From Burkholderiales bacterium (GTDB taxonomy: Bacteria > Pseudomonadota > Gammaproteobacteria > Burkholderiales > Burkholderiaceae_C), in NCBI GenBank assembly GCA_031420055.1, contig JANOLY010000328.1:1-36800 (forward strand): 36,800 nt of DNA, in the 5' to 3' direction. Position numbers and translations under genes: made by a program. The first letter of the stretch is position 1. Every line of letters starts with the position of its first letter. Below the pieces are notes generated by a model that did not search any database, was not told where the DNA came from, and saw nothing but the letters and a program-made list of their open reading frames with translations. Positions 8,520 through 36,800 of this stretch are shown here, piece after piece.

Positions 8520-8780
8520 GTGGCGAGGCACCGCACAACCACGCCAGCGCCGCGCCATGGCAGGCGGCTGCGCCAGGGTTTACGGCGGCTGGGCGCCGTG
8601 GAGCAGGCGCGCGACTGGGTTGCCACGCTGCGCCAGCACCCGGCTTTTTACAGCCTGGAGGCCGTCCGCGTCACCGTCCTGCGCAGCTTCGACCCGGCGG
8701 CCATGGGCCAGTTGGATCAGCTGCTGGACACGCTGCGCGAGGCGGCTTGCCGGCGCAGTGAAGTGCGCTCAACGCGCTGA
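8520..8780 (+). pseudogene. Probable C-terminal remnant of a TolB-like/TPR regulator or adenylate cyclase
   Basis: LGAVEQARDWVATLRQHPAFYSL....DPAAMGQLDQLLDTLREA resembles the terminal TPR/helix of such proteins. No credible N-terminus. Confidence 0.4.
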
Positions 8781-9179
8781 CTCGGGCGTCACCACCGTCA
8801 GGCCTTTGAAGTAGTGGCGGAAGAAGCCGGCGTCCGTGGTCAGCAGGGCATGGGCCTGCTGCAGGGCATGGGCGCCGACCAGAAAGTCGGGCGCCCCCCG
8901 CTGGCGCTGCCCGCCGTTGCGGGCGTAGGCGCGCATGATGCGCGCCGCGCCCAGAGCGCTGTCCAGGCTTATGGGGTCGTGCTCGATCTGGCAGTCGGAC
9001 AGGAATTCCAGCAGGGCGCTGTCACGGCTGAAGTAGCGGCCGAGCTCGGCGACGACAACGGCGCAGGCGCACAGGCTCCCGGTGGCCAGCGCCGCCTCAA
9101 GCGCGGACAGCGCCGCCACCGCGCCCGGCGCGCCTTTGACGATGTCGAACAGCACGCTGGAATCGACAGCCGTCTTCAT
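8769..9179 (-). CDS. Type II toxin, PIN-domain VapC family
   Basis: TAVDSSVL, VVVAEL, PDFLVGAHA and LLTTDAGF PIN acidic motifs. Confidence 0.92.
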   Translation of the reverse strand: MKTAVDSSVLFDIVKGAPGAVAALSALEAALATGSLCACAVVVAELGRYFSRDSALLEFLSDCQIEHDPISLDSALGAARIMRAYARNGGQRQRGAPDFLVGAHALQQAHALLTTDAGFFRHYFKGLTVVTPESAR

Positions 9180-9475
9180 GGGCGCGCAGGCTTGCGTTTG
9201 CGCGCCACCGGCCGCGCAGCCGGCGTGTCAACGCCTGGCCAGGGAACCGGGCGCCCACGCAACTCGGTCAAGGCCTGCTCGGTGCTGAGGCCGTCGTCCA
9301 CCGCTTTGCCAACCCAGCGGCTCAGATCGAGCGACACACGCTTCTCGATGAGCAATTGGCCGCCTTGGACACGCACACTCAGGCGGGCGCCGGGCTTGAG
9401 CCCCAGCGCGTCGCGGGCCTCTTTGGGAATCACGATCTGGCCGCGCGCGGCCAAGGTGACGTCGGGGATGTCCAT
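9176..9475 (-). CDS. AbrB/MazE/SpoVT-family antitoxin
   Basis: TLAARGQIVIPKEARDALGLKPG. GAGG RBS; ATGA overlap with vapC. Confidence 0.92.
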   Translation of the reverse strand: MDIPDVTLAARGQIVIPKEARDALGLKPGARLSVRVQGGQLLIEKRVSLDLSRWVGKAVDDGLSTEQALTELRGRPVPWPGVDTPAARPVARKRKPARP

Positions 9476-9482
9476 GGCGTAC

Positions 9483-9508
9483 CTCACTGAGTCTACCGAG
9501 TGAGTATG
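9483..9508 (-). promoter_or_regulatory. Putative TA autoregulatory operator overlapping the -10 box and RBS
   Basis: Inverted repeat CTCACT (9483-9488)-N10-AGTGAG (9499-9504). CATACT -10-like box on the minus strand at 9503-9508. Confidence 0.5.
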
Positions 9509-26207: not shown

Positions 26208-27734
26208 ATGACATTCGAACAAGACGCGTTCATCAGCTACGCGCACATCGACAACGAGCCCATCAGCGCCGGCCAGAAAGGCTGGGTGACGCAGTTTCAC
26301 GCCACGCTGCAAACCATGCTCAGCCAGCGCCTGGGCGAGCGGGCACGCATCTGGCGCGACGACAAGCTCGGCGGCGACGACATCTTTGCCGACGAGATCG
26401 CCCTCCAGTTCAACAAGACGGCGCTGCTGGTGTCCATCCTCAGTCCGCGCTACCTGCGCTCTGAATGGTGCACGCGTGAACTGCGCGAGTTCTGCGCCGC
26501 CGTCGAACGCGGCGGCAGCGTGGGCGCGGCCAACAAGAGCCGCGTCTTCAAGGTCGTGAAGACACCCTTGGACCCGGGCGCGGCCCTGCCCGATGCGATG
26601 CAGACCACGCTGGGCTACGAGTTCTTCGAAGAGGACCACGGCGCGCCGCGCGAGCTGGACCCGGCCTTTGGCGACGCTGCGCGCCAGGAATTCCTCAGCC
26701 GCATCAGCCGGCTGGCGTGGTCGCTGGCGCAAAGCCTGCAAGGGCTGCGCGGGCTGGCCGTGGCAGCGCGCGCCGACGCGGCCGACTCGGGTGCGTCGGC
26801 TGTGTCGGCTGCGTCGGCGGCACCAGCCGCGCGGCCGGCGGTGTACCTGGCCCATTGCGGTCGCGACCTGAGCGAGGTGCGCGAACAACTCGCCACCGAG
26901 CTGCGCATGCACGGCCACGAGGTGCTGCCCGCGCAGCCGCTGCCGATGTCCGAAGATCGGCTGCTGCCCGAACTCGACGCGCTGCTGGCGCGCTGCGCCG
27001 TGGCCGTGCACCTGGTGGGCCGCAGCGTGGGGCCGGTGCCCGACGGACCCAGCGGCCGGTCACTGGCCATGCTGCAGAACGACTGCGCCGCGCGGCGCTG
27101 CGAGCAAAGTGAGCTGCGCCGCATCATCTGGTTGCCGGCCGGTGTGAGCGGCGAACGTGCAGAGCAGCAGGCCTTCATCGACGCGCTGCAGCGCGACGCC
27201 GCCCAGCAGCGCGGCGCCGACTTGCTGCGCGGTGATGTCCAGGCGCTGAAGAGCACGCTGCACCATGCGCTCAAGCCCGCTGACCCGCCCCAGCCCCTGC
27301 CCGCCGCGGCCGGCCAGCGCCGCGTGCACGTGCTGATGTGCGAGACCGACCGCACGGCATCCGTGCCCTTGCTCAAGCGGCTGCGCGCGCAGGGCCTGCA
27401 GGTGTCGATACCGGTGTTCGTCGGCGACGCCGCGGCCCTGCGCAAGGCCAATGCCCAGTTGATCGCCGACTGCAACGGCCTGATCCTGTTCTACGGTGCG
27501 GGCGACGAGGTGTGGAAGTTCCACCAGCAGTGCGAGTTGCGCAAGCAGGCGGCCTTGCGCGGTGCGCCGCCTGGCGCCGCGGAGTGGACCTGGCTGGCAC
27601 CACCGCTCACCGCCGACAAGGAACTGCTGCAACTGCTGGGCGACACCCCATTGATCGACGGTCTGGCCGAAGGCGGCGTTGATGCACTGCAGCCCTTCTT
27701 TGCCGCGCTCGACGCCGTGGCGCCACCACGATGA
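26208..27734 (+). CDS. TIR-domain protein with two additional TIR/DUF4062-like domains
   Basis: DAFISYAH.D, IWRD, SPRYLRSEWC.RE (catalytic Glu). Second module VYLAH...VREQLATEL..GHEVLP...AVHLVG; third module VHVL..E.D...GLQV..P...CNGLILFYG. TACACT -10-like box at 26159-26164. Confidence 0.85.
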   Translation: MTFEQDAFISYAHIDNEPISAGQKGWVTQFHATLQTMLSQRLGERARIWRDDKLGGDDIFADEIALQFNKTALLVSILSPRYLRSEWCTRELREFCAAVERGGSVGAANKSRVFKVVKTPLDPGAALPDAMQTTLGYEFFEEDHGAPRELDPAFGDAARQEFLSRISRLAWSLAQSLQGLRGLAVAARADAADSGASAVSAASAAPAARPAVYLAHCGRDLSEVREQLATELRMHGHEVLPAQPLPMSEDRLLPELDALLARCAVAVHLVGRSVGPVPDGPSGRSLAMLQNDCAARRCEQSELRRIIWLPAGVSGERAEQQAFIDALQRDAAQQRGADLLRGDVQALKSTLHHALKPADPPQPLPAAAGQRRVHVLMCETDRTASVPLLKRLRAQGLQVSIPVFVGDAAALRKANAQLIADCNGLILFYGAGDEVWKFHQQCELRKQAALRGAPPGAAEWTWLAPPLTADKELLQLLGDTPLIDGLAEGGVDALQPFFAALDAVAPPR

Positions 27735-30196
27735 GCACGATCCAGCTGCCCAGCAACCCTTTTCCCGGGCTGCGCCCTTTCCGGCAAGGCGAAGAGGCGC
27801 TGTTCTTCGGCCGCGAAACGCAGGTCGACGCGATGATCGACAAGTTGGCCGGCACGCGCTTTCTGGCCGTGGTGGGCACCTCGGGCTCGGGCAAGTCATC
27901 ACTCGTCAACTGCGGCCTGGTGCCGGGGCTGTACCGCGGCTTGATGGACCGCGCAGGCAGCGACTGGCGCGTGGCCACGCTGCGCCCGGGCAACCGCCCC
28001 TTGCGCGCCCTGGCCGAGGCATTGGCCCGGCCCGGCTTGCTGGGCCCGCAGGCGGCCGACGACGGCACCGGCTTCAGCCCCACCGAGCTGATGGAAGCGC
28101 TGCTGCGCATGAGCAAGCTCGGCCTGGTCGACGCCTGCCAGCAAGCCCACCTGGGCCCGCGGCAAAACCTGCTGGTGGTGGTGGACCAGTTCGAGGAGCT
28201 GTTTCGCTTCCGCGCCCTGGCCGCTGACGGTCCGCAAGCGGCCAAGGGCCAGGAAGACGCCACCGCATTCGTCAACCTGCTGCTCGAAGCCGCAGCCCAC
28301 CCCGAGCTGCCGGTGTACGTGGTGCTGACCATGCGGTCGGACTTTCTCGGCGAGTGCGCCCAGTACGTCGGGCTGCCCGAAGCCATCAACCGCGGCCAGT
28401 ACCTGGTGCCACGCATGACGCGCGAAGAACGCCGCGCGGCAATAGCCGGCCCCGTGGGTGTGTGCGGCGCGCAGATCGACCCGGTGCTGTTGACCCGCTT
28501 GGTCAATGACGTGGGCGACGACCCCGACCAGCTGTCGCTGCTGCAACATGCCCTGAACCGCACCTGGGCCGACTGGCACGAAGGTGGGCGCGTCGGTGCG
28601 CTGTCGCTGGTGCATTACGAAGCGATAGGCACGATGGCCCAGGCGCTGGACAAGCACGCCGAAGAAGCCTACGCCGCCCTGGTTGGCCCGGCGCAGCAGG
28701 CCCGGTGTGCCGAGCTGTTCAAGGCCATCACCGACCGCGGCACCGACGCGCGCGGCACACGCCGGCCCACACGCATGGACACCTTGATGGCCATCACCGG
28801 TGCCAGCGCCGACGCGTTGACGGCGGTGATCGAGGTCTTGCGCGAACCCACGCGCTCCTTCCTGATGCCGCCTGCCGGCACACCGCTGGCGCCGGACACG
28901 CCCATCGACATTTCCCACGAGAGCCTGATGCGGGTCTGGCAGCGCCTGCGCAACTGGGTCGACCAGGAGGCCCGATCCGCCCAGGTCTACCGCCGCCTGG
29001 CAGAAACGGCCGAGTTGCATGCCGCCGGCCGCGCCGCGCTGCTGCGGCCCCCCGACCTGCCCTTCGCCGTGGACTGGCAGGCCCGCGAGCAACCCAGTGC
29101 CGCCTGGGCGCACCGCTACCGGCCCGGCCTGGACGCCGCCTTGCAGTTCCTGCAGCGCAGCCAGCAGGCCTACGACGAAGAAGTGCGCGCCGAGCAAGCC
29201 GAGACCGCCGAGCGCGATCAATTGCTGCGACAGCAGCGGCGCACACGGCGTCTGCTCGTCGCCGCGGGCGTCATCGGCAGCGTGCTGGTGGTGATGTTCT
29301 CGGCCATGGGTTGGCTGGTCCGCGACGCGACCCGCGAACGTGTTCGCGCCAACACCGAGGCGGCCCGCTCTGCGCAGGCCGAACGTGCCGCCCGCACCGC
29401 CCAGGCCGCGGCCGAGACCGCGTTGCTGGCCGCACGCCGCGCCGCAGACACACAGGGCTGGCAGCAGAAGATCTACAGCAACGCCTTGAGCGGCAAGATA
29501 GAGCTTCAGCGGGAAATACAGCGCGCCGTGCAAGACCGCCGCGCCGTGTACCTGCAATACGCCGACCCCGAGCAGCGGCGTGCCGTGGAAGCGCTGCGGC
29601 CGCACCTGGCCCAGGCCGGCTGGTCGGCCCCGGGCTCGGAACGCGTGCAGTCCGCGCCGAACAACGCGCAGATCCGCTACTTCCGCAAGGACGACGAAGG
29701 CGCTGCCCGCAGCCTGGCCGCGCTGTTCAAGCGCTGGGGCTGGGGCGTCCTGCGGCCGGAATTCATCAAGGGCGACGGCGGCCTGTCAGAGCAGACCAGT
29801 CAGTTTGAAGTGTGGCTCGCCCGGCCCAACCCGGCTGAGCTGGTGCGGCTGCTCAAGGCCATCGACGGACCGGTGAAGGACGACCGCCTGAAGGCCCTGC
29901 AGGCCTTGGTCGACAGCCACGGCGCGTCGCCTGCGGCCATCAGCGCGGCGCTGGACCTGGCCAGCGCCGCGCGACTCGAATCGTTGACAGCACCCGGCCG
30001 CTTCAACCAGCTGTACTTCCTGAGCCCCCCCGCCCCGCTGGCCTGGGACGACGCGCAGATTCGAACCGCCCGCGATGCCCTGGCGCGGGTGCGCAACCGT
30101 GCCGAGCCGGGCAAGGACACGCTGGAAGAAATCACCCGCATTGACAACCTCCTGGCCGCAGCGGCGGGCCGCGAAGCCTTTGGGCCGGCCTCGTGA
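27731..30196 (+). CDS. nSTAND1-type STAND NTPase with transmembrane helix and C-terminal putative extracytoplasmic domains
   Basis: NPFPGLRPF, FFGR, Walker A GTSGSGKSS, Walker B VVVDQFEELF, TMRSDF, L.LLQHAL, ISHESL.R.W.RL..W. Hydrophobic helix LLVAAGVIGSVLVVMFSAMGWLV. ATGA overlap with the TIR gene. Confidence 0.88.
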   Translation: MSTIQLPSNPFPGLRPFRQGEEALFFGRETQVDAMIDKLAGTRFLAVVGTSGSGKSSLVNCGLVPGLYRGLMDRAGSDWRVATLRPGNRPLRALAEALARPGLLGPQAADDGTGFSPTELMEALLRMSKLGLVDACQQAHLGPRQNLLVVVDQFEELFRFRALAADGPQAAKGQEDATAFVNLLLEAAAHPELPVYVVLTMRSDFLGECAQYVGLPEAINRGQYLVPRMTREERRAAIAGPVGVCGAQIDPVLLTRLVNDVGDDPDQLSLLQHALNRTWADWHEGGRVGALSLVHYEAIGTMAQALDKHAEEAYAALVGPAQQARCAELFKAITDRGTDARGTRRPTRMDTLMAITGASADALTAVIEVLREPTRSFLMPPAGTPLAPDTPIDISHESLMRVWQRLRNWVDQEARSAQVYRRLAETAELHAAGRAALLRPPDLPFAVDWQAREQPSAAWAHRYRPGLDAALQFLQRSQQAYDEEVRAEQAETAERDQLLRQQRRTRRLLVAAGVIGSVLVVMFSAMGWLVRDATRERVRANTEAARSAQAERAARTAQAAAETALLAARRAADTQGWQQKIYSNALSGKIELQREIQRAVQDRRAVYLQYADPEQRRAVEALRPHLAQAGWSAPGSERVQSAPNNAQIRYFRKDDEGAARSLAALFKRWGWGVLRPEFIKGDGGLSEQTSQFEVWLARPNPAELVRLLKAIDGPVKDDRLKALQALVDSHGASPAAISAALDLASAARLESLTAPGRFNQLYFLSPPAPLAWDDAQIRTARDALARVRNRAEPGKDTLEEITRIDNLLAAAAGREAFGPAS

Positions 30197-32799: not shown

Positions 32800-33339
32800 T
32801 CAAGCCAGGGCACTGTAGAGATTGAAGCTGCTGATCAACACAATCACCGTGCCGACCAGCGCCAGCAAGGTCTTGGTGCGCAGCCGCTGCGTCAGCAGCG
32901 CGGCAAAGGGCGCCGCGAAGAGACCGCCCACCACCAGACCCGCCACGGTGACCCAGGGGCTTTCAGACACCAGCATTGCAAACACGCCGGCACTGACAAA
33001 GGTGAGAAAGAACTCGGCCAGGTTCACCGAGCCTATGGTCATGCGGGGGTCGTTGCCGGTGCCCACCAGTGTGGTCGTCACCACAGGGCCCCAGCCACCG
33101 CCACCGGCTGCATCGACGAAACCACCGAGCAAACCGAGCTTGGCGACATGTCGGGGCTCAGCGCGCTGCGGCTTGATGACGCGAAAGACCTTGCTGATGA
33201 CGTACAGCCCCATCAGCAGCAGGTAGGCCGCAACAAACGGCTTGATGGCGGCGCCGTCAACGCTGGAGACCAGCCAGGCCCCAGCGGCAGCGCCCACCAT
33301 GCCAGGCACCAGCAAGCGCAGGAACAGGCGCTTGTTCAC
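32800..33339 (-). pseudogene. Sulfite exporter TauE/SafE family, 5'-truncated
   Basis: Begins mid-protein at VNKRLFLRLLVPGMVGAAAG. GGFVDAAGGGGWGPVVTT, PR.TIGSVNLAEFF. The first TM segments are missing. Confidence 0.85.
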
Positions 33340-34393
33340 GTGGCTGGCCCGGCACCGCGACCCGGATACGGGTAAGCAGGCGCAGAACCCGCTGGGCGAG
33401 TTCCCCGACCTCGCCGCAGGCGCGCGCTTCGACGCCGCTGTGAAGGCCGCCCGTGAGTGGTTCGGCCACCTGGCCCGCGGCGGGAAGAAGGAACCGTTGA
33501 CCGTGAAGCAAGCGTGCGCGAACTACATCGACCAACTGAAGGCCGCTGGCAAGGCTCAGGCTGCGGCGGACACCGAAAAGCGCTTCGCCCGGTGGGTGGA
33601 TGACCACAAGGTCGGTGGCATCACCTTGCAGAAGCTCAAGTCCGGCGACATCGACGAGTGGCGTAAGGGCCTGGCGGCGACGCCAACCATTCCGCAGGAC
33701 AAGAAGAGCGACAAGCCGACGCGGGCACGGAGCGCGAGCACGCTCAACCGCGACATGACATCGCTGCGAGCCGCCCTGAACCTGGCCATCGAGAACGCCG
33801 ACGCAACAAGCGACGCCGCCTGGAAGGTCAAGCTGCGGCCCGTGAAAGATGCAGACCGCCGCCGCGACGTGTACCTCGACCTGACACAGCGTCGTGCACT
33901 GATCGCCAAGGCCCCTGCCGATCTGGCCCTCTTCCTGAGCGCCCTGTCTCTGGTGCCGCTGCGCCCCGGCGCCATGGCCGCGCTGGTGGCCGGCAACTTC
34001 GACAAGCGCCTGTCCACACTGACCATCGGCAAGGACAAGCACGGGCAGGACCGAAAGATCACGCTGCCGCCGGCCACCGCCGCCTTCTTCGCCGCACAGT
34101 GCAAGGGCAAGCTGCCTACTGCGCCACTGCTGGCCCGGGCCGATGGCTCGGCGTGGAACAAGGATGCGTGGAAGTACCCGATCAAGGACGCCGTCATCGC
34201 GGCCGAGTTGCCGACAGCCGCCACAGCCTACGCGCTGCGGCACTCCACCATCACCGACCTGATCGCCCTGCACAAGCTCGACACGCTGACCGTTGCGCAG
34301 TTGTCGGGCACGAGCCTGCTGATGATCGAGAAGCACTACGGGCACCTGTTGCGCGAGCACGCGGCCAAGGCGTTGGCGTCGCTTACGCTGTAG
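33338..34393 (+). pseudogene. Tyrosine recombinase/integrase, 5'-truncated
   Basis: Arm-binding remnant TWLARHRD...LGEF, TLNRDMT.LRAALN, catalytic LRPG, GKDK, YALRHS.IT, SGTS..MIEKHYGH. No native start upstream of 33338. Confidence 0.85.
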
Positions 34394-34511: not shown

Positions 34512-36800
34512 TTACTCCACCTCGAATCCCTGGCTCGTGAATTTCAAGGTCCGGCTGTTCTCCGTTACGGTGCGCACGACGTTGTCTGGTGCGCCGCCGG
34601 GCAAGGCGGCCTCAATCTCGATCGTGACGGTCACCTCGGCGCCGACGAGACCGGCAAGATGTGCGATCACCTCGTCGGCGATGCGACTTGCGTCGCGGCC
34701 GACGCGGGCGCTGTCAAGCGTGGCCGTGCCGTGAAATCGCTTGGGCTTTGCGGCCGCTGGCGGCAGGGCTGACTCGCCAATCGGGCTTGGTCCCGAAACT
34801 GCCGCTGCTGTCCCGGCTCCATCCGTCGTGGCACATCCAATCGTGGCCCCAAAACCGCCCGCCGCTGTTGCAGCGGCGGCCGCATCGGCATCACTCTGTG
34901 CACGAGCGACACTGGGCTTGACCAGCAGGCCCGAAGAATGTGCGTCGGCAATCGACACCGTCTGGCCCGTTCGCAGCCCACGGTAGCGCGCCGCAACATC
35001 ATCGTGGCTGTCGGCAAGCGCGAAGCTGTCCTGCTCCCAGGTCATCAGCGACAGACCGTCCCGGATCGAGTTGACCAGCACCGACGAGTTCGCCAGGCGT
35101 GGCAAGTACAGGTAACGACCGAAGTCCTCTGCCAACTGACTGATGGCCACATGAGCGCCGCCGCGCCAGAGTGGCACACGGTCCAGTTCCATGCGCAGGC
35201 GCGACGGCGCAAAGCCCGTGAGCAGAAGTTCGTCGCTGCGCAGCTTCTTGCTCGCCCGCACGGCCAGCGCATCCTGCCCTGTCAGGCGCATGGCCTGCCA
35301 TTCGATGGCCGACTGAGGCGTTGCCTGCACCGGCACCAGCAGCCACTGATAGGTTTCCGGCACGCGGGCCGTTACCGCCCCATCGGCCGCCTTCAATTGC
35401 GTCTCGGCCTGCTTCACCTGCTGCGGATCGAGATTCAGCGTCTTCTGCTCATCGATGATCGAAGCCCACGCCAGGTACTTGCGCGCCGCCTCATCCAGGT
35501 CCTGCAGGCGAATCTTGTCGGCGGCCAAGAAGACGAGCGCATTGCGATACAGCCGCGGCGTGTTGCCGCGTAACTCCAGCATCGCCTTCGCCGCCACCTC
35601 GGCCGCGTTGCCCGGGTCCTTGCTGTAAGGCTGATCGACCGATAAGACAACCAGTCGCGCATCGATATCGTCCGGCACGTCCTGGCTGGCTTGCGGCATG
35701 GGGTGGATGCGACTGAAATCGCCCGTGCGGCGCAGGTCATCGCGCAGGCGGCGATCCAGTTCATGCACCACCTTGTCAGGCTCGCGCTTCAGTTGTTCAG
35801 CACGGTCTTCTGCCAGCTTGGTGACCGTGGGCTGTGTTGAGTACCAGTACCGTGGGCCATCCTGGTAGAGGTAGGTCGCGGCCCCGGCCAGCCGCCGCAG
35901 CGCATCACCGAACACGGCGGGCGATTCCCCGGGCATCACACAGCCGAGCTTGACGCGCCGGTCTTCGAGCCCACGGTGCGCGGCCTGGGTCAGCGGTGCC
36001 GACCCCAAGTAGATCGCGCGCGCCACACGCCGGCAGGCCGAGAACTTGCCGAGGTTCGGCAGTTCGCTGTCCAACCGCAGCGGCAGCGAGCTCGGTCCGT
36101 CCACGTCCTTCTCGATCACCGGCACCCAGTTGTCCGACAAGTAGCGCGTCAACTCGGACTGCACCCGCGGGTCGTCCACGGCGATGTTGGCCGGCAGGAT
36201 GAGCGGGCTGCGATCGCCTTTCTCCCACAGGCTGTGGATCACCGCCGCCATCAGCCGCAGCACGCCGCGTGTCCGCTGAAACTTCACCAGCGTGGACCAG
36301 TCGGTGTACAGCCGGTCGAAAATCTCGGGGTGGATCGGGTAGGCCGCCTTTAACCGCTTCTCGTAGTCGCTGTCGCCGCACTCCGGCGGAAACTCGGTCT
36401 TCTGCGTGCGATAGAAGTCGGCAAAGGCCCGCGCCACCACGTCGCGGTCCTTGAACTGCGCCGGGTCCGACAGCGGTTCGAACAGCCGACGCCGCACGAT
36501 CTCGAAGCCCTCTTCGGCGCTGGCAGGCCGCCATGACGATTCGACCCGTCCCACCACGTTGCGCAGCCGGTCAAGCGCCTCCCTCCCGCGAGTGCCGCCC
36601 ACCTCCACATCATCCGATTGCGTGTGCGGCGACCCGGTCGTGTCCGACGCCGGCAGGCTGATGACCAGCAGGCAGTTGTTCGCCAGCTTGGCCGATTCGG
36701 TCAGCACCTGCGCAAAGGTGAATTGCGTCTCGAAGCCACCCGCCGGCAAGTCACTCTGGTCATGCAACTGGCGCGCGTAGGCCACCCATTCGTCGATCAG
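34512..36800 (-). CDS. DUF499-family AAA+ ATPase (5' part lies beyond the window)
   Basis: Frame is open to the window end with Walker B LIDEWVAYAR. EGFEIVRRRLF, AYPIHPE.FDRLY.DW..L.KFQRTRGVLRLMA, C-terminal VRTVTENSRTLKF. Confidence 0.88.
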   Translation of the reverse strand: MIDEWVAYARQLHDQSDLPAGGFETQFTFAQVLTESAKLANNCLLVISLPASDTTGSPHTQSDDVEVGGTRGREALDRLRNVVGRVESSWRPASAEEGFEIVRRRLFEPLSDPAQFKDRDVVARAFADFYRTQKTEFPPECGDSDYEKRLKAAYPIHPEIFDRLYTDWSTLVKFQRTRGVLRLMAAVIHSLWEKGDRSPLILPANIAVDDPRVQSELTRYLSDNWVPVIEKDVDGPSSLPLRLDSELPNLGKFSACRRVARAIYLGSAPLTQAAHRGLEDRRVKLGCVMPGESPAVFGDALRRLAGAATYLYQDGPRYWYSTQPTVTKLAEDRAEQLKREPDKVVHELDRRLRDDLRRTGDFSRIHPMPQASQDVPDDIDARLVVLSVDQPYSKDPGNAAEVAAKAMLELRGNTPRLYRNALVFLAADKIRLQDLDEAARKYLAWASIIDEQKTLNLDPQQVKQAETQLKAADGAVTARVPETYQWLLVPVQATPQSAIEWQAMRLTGQDALAVRASKKLRSDELLLTGFAPSRLRMELDRVPLWRGGAHVAISQLAEDFGRYLYLPRLANSSVLVNSIRDGLSLMTWEQDSFALADSHDDVAARYRGLRTGQTVSIADAHSSGLLVKPSVARAQSDADAAAAATAAGGFGATIGCATTDGAGTAAAVSGPSPIGESALPPAAAKPKRFHGTATLDSARVGRDASRIADEVIAHLAGLVGAEVTVTIEIEAALPGGAPDNVVRTVTENSRTLKFTSQGFEVE

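What the first reader, a model, noticed from the sequence alone, without database searches (positions are those of the whole stretch)
26208..30196. Split NLR-like system: multi-TIR effector coupled to an effector-less, membrane-anchored nSTAND1 NTPase
Seen: two genes joined by an ATGA overlap (27731-27734). Gene 1 has an N-terminal TIR domain with the WC-x-x-E catalytic glutamate. Gene 2 starts directly with the nSTAND1 NTPase, so it has no N-terminal effector; it continues with a membrane helix and a C-terminal region lacking WD40/TPR repeats. Established: STAND NTPases such as Avs and bacterial NACHT proteins oligomerise on sensing and activate fused effectors, including TIR NADases. Inference: the TIR protein is an effector supplied in trans, and the STAND relays an envelope/periplasmic cue across the inner membrane, giving a transmembrane NLR-like immune or signalling receptor. 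It lies about 3 kb from an integrase/DUF499 locus.
Basis: partly seen in the sequence, partly recalled or inferred. Interest (0 to 1): 0.85.

Follow-up and report, generated by a model that had tools for sequence, protein, structure and literature searches.

The report
TIR enzyme docking on membrane STAND
Two overlapping bacterial genes encode a likely NAD-cutting enzyme and a membrane-anchored immune-type ATPase that are always found side by side and are predicted to clip together, so that damage sensed outside the inner membrane would switch on the enzyme inside; the gene pair is already catalogued, but it has not been tested.

Summary
Observation confirmed. Gene 1 (26208-27734) has an N-terminal TIR with Glu91, invariant in 121 of 121 homologues, then two TIR/DrHyd-fold domains lacking that Glu in this copy. 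Gene 2 (27731-30196) is nSTAND1 without a fused effector, then a membrane helix, a LytR_C-like domain and HEAT-like helices. The genes are adjacent in 77 of 77 informative loci from seven phyla. The C-terminal part is swapped freely (WD40, SPOR, FGE, RDD, TPR), and positive-inside bias plus SPOR fusions put it in the periplasm. New here: a complex prediction passed (ipSAE 0.71, best control 0.00; mark reached by 116 of 157 solved and 2 of 215 mismatched pairs). The third domain docks on the STAND and the catalytic TIR stays free. The arrangement is not new: Kaur 2021 source data list 'TIR+DrHyd -> nSTAND1+TM', and this scan reported the pair twice on other DNA. Defence is inferred only: no PADLOC match, mostly housekeeping neighbours, and the integrase/DUF499 locus is separate. 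Verdict: a new variant of a catalogued, untested kind.

The parts
26208..27734 (+). Gene 1, 508 aa three-domain TIR protein (P0001)
   Evidence: 1050 relatives at E<=0.001 among 7992 candidates scored
26214..26741 (+). Domain 1: TIR, probably an active NAD+ hydrolase; E91 at 26478-26480
   Evidence: TIR_2 40.7 bits against 28; E91 in 121 of 121 and 67 of 67; VIA Z 13.6 to TIRAP, 13.5 to RPP1 TIR; weak FxsC_Nterm 49.4 against 130
26829..27275 (+). Domain 2: DrHyd/DUF4062-like Rossmann domain; Gln290 (27075-27077) at the inferred catalytic Glu position
   Evidence: DUF4062 16.5 bits, under the 24.7 cut-off; VIA Z 11.7, rmsd 3.4, 128 aligned to MilB; position 290 is Q in 78 and E in 40 of 121; the position is placed by a recalled motif, not by a structural alignment
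27312..27722 (+). Domain 3: TIR/receiver-fold domain without the W-x3-E glutamate; predicted docking adaptor for the STAND
   Evidence: VIA Z 11.9 to TRIF TIR, tied with 11.6 to a receiver domain; W436+4 is Q, I, V or T; interface residues 378-380, 404-412, 432-452
27731..27734 (+). ATGA stop/start overlap (translational coupling)
   Evidence: ATGA or GTGA overlap in 64 of 76 loci with a partner hit
27731..30196 (+). Gene 2, 821 aa single-pass membrane STAND protein (P0002)
27758..29020 (+). nSTAND1 NTPase module with intact Walker A (49-57) and Walker B (147-156); predicted docking face at residues 20-37, 65-79 and 230-263
   Evidence: 324 bits against 27.1; invariant G49, G54, K55, S56, D152, E155, R202 in 67 of 67
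29252..29308 (+). Transmembrane helix (residues 508-526), N-terminus inside by the positive-inside rule
   Evidence: 62 of 66 partners have such a helix at KD>=1.6; 55 of 62 have more K/R on the N side
29540..29830 (+). LytR_C-like domain (about 604-700), predicted periplasmic
   Evidence: LytR_C 16.0 bits, under the 22.2 cut-off; 8 of 15 aligned members hit it at E<=1, best 1.8e-4; a homologue passes at 34.9; fused to SPOR in 4 partners; 98 of 125 carriers have an upstream TM helix against 2 of 71 controls
29831..30166 (+). HEAT/ARM-like helical repeat domain (about 701-812)
   Evidence: model pLDDT 88; VIA Z 10.8, rmsd 3.2, 116 aligned to importin beta, below the level that is specific for helical repeats; shared by 9 of 66 partners

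Best explanation
Gene 1 encodes a TIR protein that is predicted to dock through its third, catalytically degenerate domain onto the cytoplasmic NTPase of gene 2, a single-pass membrane STAND whose likely periplasmic end would sense an envelope cue and trigger NAD+ cleavage. Shown by sequence and comparison: domain content, intact catalytic motifs, strict gene coupling, membrane helix, exchangeable C-terminal domains. Predicted: the domain 3 / NTPase interface and the periplasmic topology. Inferred from STAND and TIR biology: a cue at the cell wall (for example a breach by a phage or a predator) clusters the receptor; the STAND exchanges nucleotide and oligomerises; the docked TIR-1 domains are brought together and deplete NAD+, arresting or killing the cell. 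The split lets a membrane receptor swap its outer sensor while it keeps one soluble effector.
For: Coupling: of 80 loci (best 80 of 569 confirmed), 76 have nSTAND1 directly downstream, L069 shows its start at the contig end, and 3 are uninformative (two contig ends, one N gap). Walker A lies at residue 42-64 in 71 of 76 partners. Pairwise identities of the two proteins correlate at r=0.85 (kin not independent). Docking: ipSAE 0.71/0.71/0.68, best of 3 controls 0.00; mark reached by 116 of 157 solved and 2 of 215 mismatched pairs; runs agree in at least 87% of contacts; partner pLDDT at least 83. No solved relative of this STAND by sequence; TIR-1 is not in the interface. Fused counterparts: TIR+nSTAND1+TM+same outer domain (P0271, P0280) and TIR+TM+outer domain (P0207, P0213, P0281). 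Topology. Accessory behaviour: full-length gene 1 not found in 24 genus relatives or 16 other genomes of the order; different genes follow the CoA-transferase in 6 of 6 relatives fetched. Other TIR-type or phospholipase genes flank 6 loci.
Against: No PADLOC model matches gene 1; gene 2 has only P-loop-level hits. Of 139 neighbour representatives, 11 hit PADLOC at E<=1e-10 and only 7 look like conflict genes (no control run); most named neighbours are housekeeping genes such as gyrB, dnaX, proA, aroC. The Acidobacteriaceae copies keep one site beside dnaX-ybaB-recR in 9 loci, which is unlike a fast-turnover defence gene. Predicted interface positions are not less retained than other conserved positions in 13 effector-fused nSTAND1 (0.37 against 0.42, p=0.31) and are hardly more conserved than average (0.77 against 0.75; 0.67 against 0.62). 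LytR_C membership is below cut-off and its fold was not confirmed. No activity or expression data.
Confidence: 0.55

Rival explanations
1. Same receptor and docking, but a non-lethal signalling device: the STAND reports cell-wall or surface-contact status and TIR-1 makes an ADPR-type second messenger for envelope or community behaviour, not abortive infection.
For: Mostly housekeeping neighbours; stable site in Acidobacteriaceae and Zoogloea; LytR_C proteins act in wall upkeep (passages of PMC11832169); defence and non-defence STAND clades are interspersed (PMC13581612 section 5).
Against: No conserved third gene that could read a messenger; patchy spread over seven phyla and rapid sensor exchange; the same outer domain is fused to caspase, CHAT and TIR effectors.
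Confidence: 0.2
2. Inverse logic: the resting STAND holds the TIR protein inactive at the membrane, like an antitoxin; sensing releases it, and the free protein self-assembles through domains 2 and 3 into an active NADase.
For: The passing model is a 1:1 complex without nucleotide or oligomer, so it may be the resting state. Translational coupling in 64 of 76 loci suits fixed stoichiometry. Inactive TIRs are proposed to aid multimerisation in TIR-ParA systems (10.64898/2026.10.19.760177, passages).
Against: Fused TIR+nSTAND1+TM proteins cannot release their TIR. The toxic gene is upstream, whereas antitoxin-first order is commoner (recalled).
Confidence: 0.15
3. An immune pair whose C-terminal domains are not periplasmic sensors: the helix is only a tether or the tail is a passive wall anchor, and the cue (a phage protein or membrane change) is read on the cytoplasmic side.
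For: Topology rests on hydropathy and charge only; 4 of 66 partners fall under the hydropathy threshold, among them two with the same LytR_C-like/HEAT tail; WD40 and TPR sensors of tested STANDs are cytoplasmic (recalled); some partners have very short tails (L037, L061).
Against: SPOR fusions in 4 partners; 98 of 125 LytR_C-like carriers have an upstream TM helix; tails vary far more than an anchor would need.
Confidence: 0.1

Closest known systems
'TIR+DrHyd -> nSTAND1+TM(+BetaPropeller)' neighbourhoods, Kaur et al. eLife 2021 (PMC8195603), Figure 2 source data
   Same: Same gene order and domains; many rows. One row, ETX08407.1 of Ca. Entotheonella gemina, is 1401 aa, the length of the partner in my locus L023 from the same genus.
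   Different: Listed without discussion in section 7 and untested. The third domain is mostly unannotated there; 'LytR' has 0 occurrences in that file; no docking model.
TIR-ParA systems (FxsC/FxsT), bioRxiv 10.64898/2026.10.19.760177 section 25
   Same: Upstream active TIR with an inactive TIR behind it; downstream NTPase; STAND-fused and single-TM receptor subtypes, the latter with LytR-C sensors; proposed NAD+ destruction after peptidoglycan breach.
   Different: No ParA and no TIR-FT on gene 2. The ParA-less variants described there fuse TIR to STAND instead of splitting them. FxsC_Nterm score is 49.4 against 130.
EAD-coupled STAND systems (EAD8/bDLD3 + nSTAND1 + FGS)
   Same: Effector on a separate gene, recruited to a STAND.
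   Different: Those use the same adaptor on both proteins. Here the STAND has no adaptor domain and the predicted contact is heterotypic, on the NTPase itself.
Avs and bacterial NACHT receptors (PMC13581612; others recalled)
   Same: STAND switch between a variable sensor and a lethal effector.
   Different: Soluble, fused effector, cytoplasmic sensing of phage proteins; experimentally proven. No PADLOC match here.

Membership tests
nSTAND1 (PF20703) | Profile match over the curated cut-off, with intact Walker A and B | tested here: met
   324 against 27.1 bits; motifs invariant in 67 of 67
Kaur 2021 TIR+DrHyd -> nSTAND1+TM neighbourhood | TIR+DrHyd gene directly upstream of effector-less nSTAND1+TM | tested here: met
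TIR NAD+ hydrolase | TIR fold with catalytic Glu in helix C | tested here: met
   E91 in 121 of 121; Z 13.6
TIR NAD+ hydrolase | NAD+ cleavage and its product | not testable with these tools
   needs an assay
DrHyd/DUF4062 (domain 2) | Profile and fold match | tested here: inconclusive
   16.5 against 24.7 bits; MilB Z 11.7, TIR-STING Z 10.5
DrHyd/DUF4062 (domain 2) | Catalytic Glu | tested here: not met
   Q290 in this copy; E in 40 of 121 and 11 of 67; position set by a recalled motif
Avs / bacterial NACHT receptors | Effector fused N-terminal to the STAND | tested here: not met
   Walker A at residue 49; 42-64 in 71 of 76 partners
Avs / bacterial NACHT receptors | Soluble protein with cytoplasmic repeat sensor | tested here: not met
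   TM helix before the tail in 62 of 66; prediction only
Avs / bacterial NACHT receptors | Protection against phage | not testable with these tools
   needs phage challenge
TIR-ParA (FxsC/FxsT) | ParA domain on the downstream protein | tested here: not met
   nSTAND1 starts at residue 10; no ParA family
TIR-ParA (FxsC/FxsT) | Upstream TIR of the TIR-FC type with inactive C-terminal TIR | tested here: inconclusive
   FxsC_Nterm E 4.9e-13 but 49.4 against 130; domain 3 is TIR-like without the Glu
EAD-coupled STAND systems | Same adaptor domain on effector and STAND | tested here: not met
   no domain before the NTPase
LytR_C (PF13399) | Profile match over cut-off, or fold match | tested here: inconclusive
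   16.0 against 22.2 here; 34.9 in homologue P0140; fold lists were filled by the helical domain
Thoeris | TIR gene with a ThsA-type effector gene beside it | tested here: not met
   neighbours are a CoA-transferase and a TonB receptor; no PADLOC hit

The most novel reading that the evidence does not exclude
A bacterial NLR turned into a cell-surface receptor: a single-pass STAND that senses peptidoglycan breach in the periplasm and recruits a soluble NADase through a dead TIR-fold adaptor that binds the NTPase directly, a Toll-like/NLR hybrid with plug-in outer sensors.
Probability: 0.35. Interest if true: 0.8.

Novelty: new variant of a known kind. Interest (0 to 1): 0.52.

Why it matters
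The STAND receptors tested so far, in the papers I read and from recall, are soluble and sense phage proteins in the cytoplasm. A membrane-spanning one could act at entry or on predation. The predicted interface gives named residues on two soluble fragments, so the open question of how a STAND without a fused effector or an EAD reaches its effector can be tested at the bench. The value is limited because the gene arrangement is already catalogued, an analogous ParA receptor model is in print, and defence is not shown.

Tried and rejected
PADLOC on both proteins: nothing beyond P-loop noise. Profile-profile and BLAST comparison of the three gene 1 domains: not significant, so no evidence of recent triplication. 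Search for longer proteins carrying domains 2-3 (fused forms): none among 7992 candidates of 890-2540 aa, weak evidence. Interface-specific conservation test: negative, p=0.31; a G-L-M motif at 70-72 is in 1 of 13 fused nSTAND1, but I saw this after the fact and it follows clade. Fold confirmation of the LytR_C-like domain: three searches were filled by the helical domain or gave nothing at E<=0.001; PDB sequence search gave nothing; the Atlas gave no answer. Expression: no RNA holder listed. Membership of the integrase element: rejected as unlikely, because a TonB receptor and a truncated tauE intervene and relatives carry the integrase beside other genes without the pair. The STAND tree is the quick version; the careful search did not finish. 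Literature searches; none listed an experimental study of this pair. Not seen: file 13 and most of the 103 'TIR+DrHyd' places in the Kaur supplements, the preprint's supplements, and the supplementary tables of PMC13581612, which may include this clade or a tested member.
Full report
What is there. The window is contig C328 of a 4.2 Mb, 96% complete genome, about 70% GC; the nearest named relative of the pair is from Burkholderiales. Gene 1 (26208-27734) and gene 2 (27731-30196) overlap by ATGA. A CoA-transferase lies upstream on the other strand and a TonB-dependent receptor downstream.

Gene 1. AlphaFold2 gives three separate Rossmann-type domains (pLDDT 86, pTM 0.49). Domain 1 is a TIR by sequence (40.7 against 28 bits) and by fold (Z 13.6). 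Its Glu91 is invariant in 121 of 121 close homologues and 67 of 67 paired loci. Domain 2 is DrHyd/DUF4062-like (16.5 bits, below cut-off; best fold match MilB, Z 11.7); the inferred catalytic position is Gln here, Gln in 78 and Glu in 40 of 121, so it is degenerate in most but not all copies. Domain 3 has a TIR or receiver fold (Z 11.9 and 11.6, tied) and no Glu four residues after W436. The three domains are not significantly alike as profiles.

Gene 2. nSTAND1 spans 10-430 with intact Walker motifs. A membrane helix follows at 508-526, then a helical linker and two domains modelled at pLDDT 88. The first is LytR_C-like: below cut-off here, hit by 8 of 15 aligned members at E<=1, above cut-off in one homologue. 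The second is a HEAT/ARM-like solenoid (Z 10.8, not specific for helical repeats).

Coupling. Of these, 76 have nSTAND1 directly downstream, one more shows its start at a contig end, and three cannot tell (two contig ends, one N gap). The 4-base overlap recurs in 64 of 76, and Walker A sits at residue 42-64 in 71 of 76. Hosts include Pseudomonadota, Acidobacteriota, Cyanobacteriota, Tectimicrobiota, Verrucomicrobiota, Myxococcota and a Desulfobacterota bin. The loci were chosen by likeness to gene 1 and include kin, so they are not independent. From the other side, 12 of 251 genomes of the class have a strong nSTAND1 match; among those loci I scored 10 as effector-fused and 7 as effector-less, of which three follow a gene ending in a domain that looks like domain 3 by eye, two follow SIR2-like genes by eye, and two were not resolved. 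Full-length gene 1 was not found in 24 genus relatives; one other genus member has a distant pair elsewhere.

Sensor exchange and topology. Of 66 partners long enough to score (10 of 76 dropped as short, cut or frameshifted), 29 end in WD40, 4 in SPOR, 3 in RDD, 2 in FGE-sulfatase, 1 in TPR, 1 in DUF2914 and 26 in no Pfam family; 9 of the 26 have our two domains. The four SPOR partners carry the LytR_C-like domain just before SPOR, a periplasmic glycan-binding domain (recalled). A helix of KD>=1.6 is present in 62 of 66, with more K/R on the N side in 55 of 62. The LytR_C-like profile finds 3025 representatives; of the best 150, 125 had enough upstream sequence and 98 have a TM helix, against 2 of 71 control stretches. 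In the 64 I scanned, it is fused to nSTAND1, TIR, caspase, CHAT and ParA, including TIR+nSTAND1+TM fusions.

Docking. The one complex job, full gene 1 against gene 2 residues 1-440 with my own paired alignments, passed: ipSAE 0.71, 0.71, 0.68; best of three controls 0.00; the mark was reached by 116 of 157 solved and 2 of 215 mismatched pairs (counts hold only roughly with my alignments); runs agree in at least 87% of contacts; partner pLDDT at least 83. The contacts are domain 3 (404-412, 432-452) and the end of domain 2 (328-353) against the NTPase (20-37, 65-79, 230-263); domain 1 is not named. F404, G406, A408, R412 and W436 are conserved in 65-67 of 67. Sequence searches found no solved relative of the STAND beyond P-loop matches and only a weak plant TIR match for gene 1, so recall of a like complex is unlikely though not excluded. 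An independent conservation test did not support the interface (p=0.31). The model supports binding; it does not show it.

Is it defence? Not shown. PADLOC does not know the pair. Of 139 neighbour representatives, 11 hit PADLOC; 7 in 6 loci look like conflict genes, and the rest are QueC, Lon, a probable RecF and a piece of a frameshifted partner. Most named neighbours are housekeeping. The integrase and DUF499 genes are real and 3.0-4.3 kb away, but the integrase and tauE both look cut at their junction, and relatives have the integrase without the pair. The case for conflict rests on the NADase effector, patchy spread, sensor exchange and analogy.

What is in print. PMC8195603 (passages, section 7, and rows of supplementary file 1) defines nSTAND1 and lists 'TIR+DrHyd -> nSTAND1+TM' many times without discussion in what I read. 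The ParA preprint (passages and section 25) describes the analogous TIR-ParA receptors with LytR-C sensors. PMC13581612 (abstract, passages, sections 5 and 15) covers STAND clades broadly; 'transmembrane' occurs once, in a legend. PMC10907252 (passages) notes STAND targets with predicted periplasmic lectin domains. PMC11832169 (passages) gives the wall link of LytR_C. Six searches listed no experimental test of this pair. The scan noted the same pair on two other genomes.

Verdict. Real, intact and tightly coupled; a catalogued but untested system. New here are the LytR_C-like/HEAT outer part and a controlled prediction that the dead third domain docks directly on the NTPase. Interest 0.52.

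Noticed in passing
L027, L031, L046, L047, L051, L060, L064, L084, just downstream of the STAND gene (e.g. L084:13383-14810): In 8 Zoogloea-type loci the WD40 version of the pair is followed on the same strand by a phage tail sheath gene (Pfam Phage_sheath_1) and a tube-like gene, possibly a contractile injection cluster.
   Followed up: partly
window 32800-34393: tauE lacks its N-terminus (profile 62-234 of 237) and the opposed integrase-like ORF lacks about 45 N-terminal residues against its G024 relative; the junction looks like a deletion or insertion scar.
   Followed up: partly
window 34512-36800 (-): DUF499 anti-phage-associated ATPase gene, cut by the contig end; in G024 the same integrase is followed by REase-ARP, YgjP and type I restriction genes, so this element seems to carry variable defence cargo.
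   Followed up: partly
P0135-P0284 (profile of window 29516-29836): The LytR_C-like domain is a widespread mobile module (3025 representatives) on nSTAND1, TIR, caspase, CHAT, ParA and SPOR proteins, mostly unrecognised by Pfam; it may mark a wider set of envelope-sensing conflict receptors.
   Followed up: partly
L112, L115 (upstream of nSTAND1): A second effector-less nSTAND1 clade follows a SIR2-like gene (judged by eye), suggesting that the split design is reused with other NAD-targeting effectors.
   Followed up: no
L052, L056, L070, L073, L075, L079, L080, L089, L091 (partner residues 470 onward): Acidobacteriaceae partners share a tail of about 390 aa with no Pfam match; most sit stably before dnaX-ybaB-recR.
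   Followed up: no
window 8769-9487 (-): Small two-gene unit that looks like an AbrB-type antitoxin and a PIN-type toxin, by eye.
   Followed up: no
L081:3691-5712: One ORF joins domains 1-2 of the TIR protein in frame to the STAND from about residue 71, lacking domain 3 and Walker A; a deletion or a misassembly.
   Followed up: no
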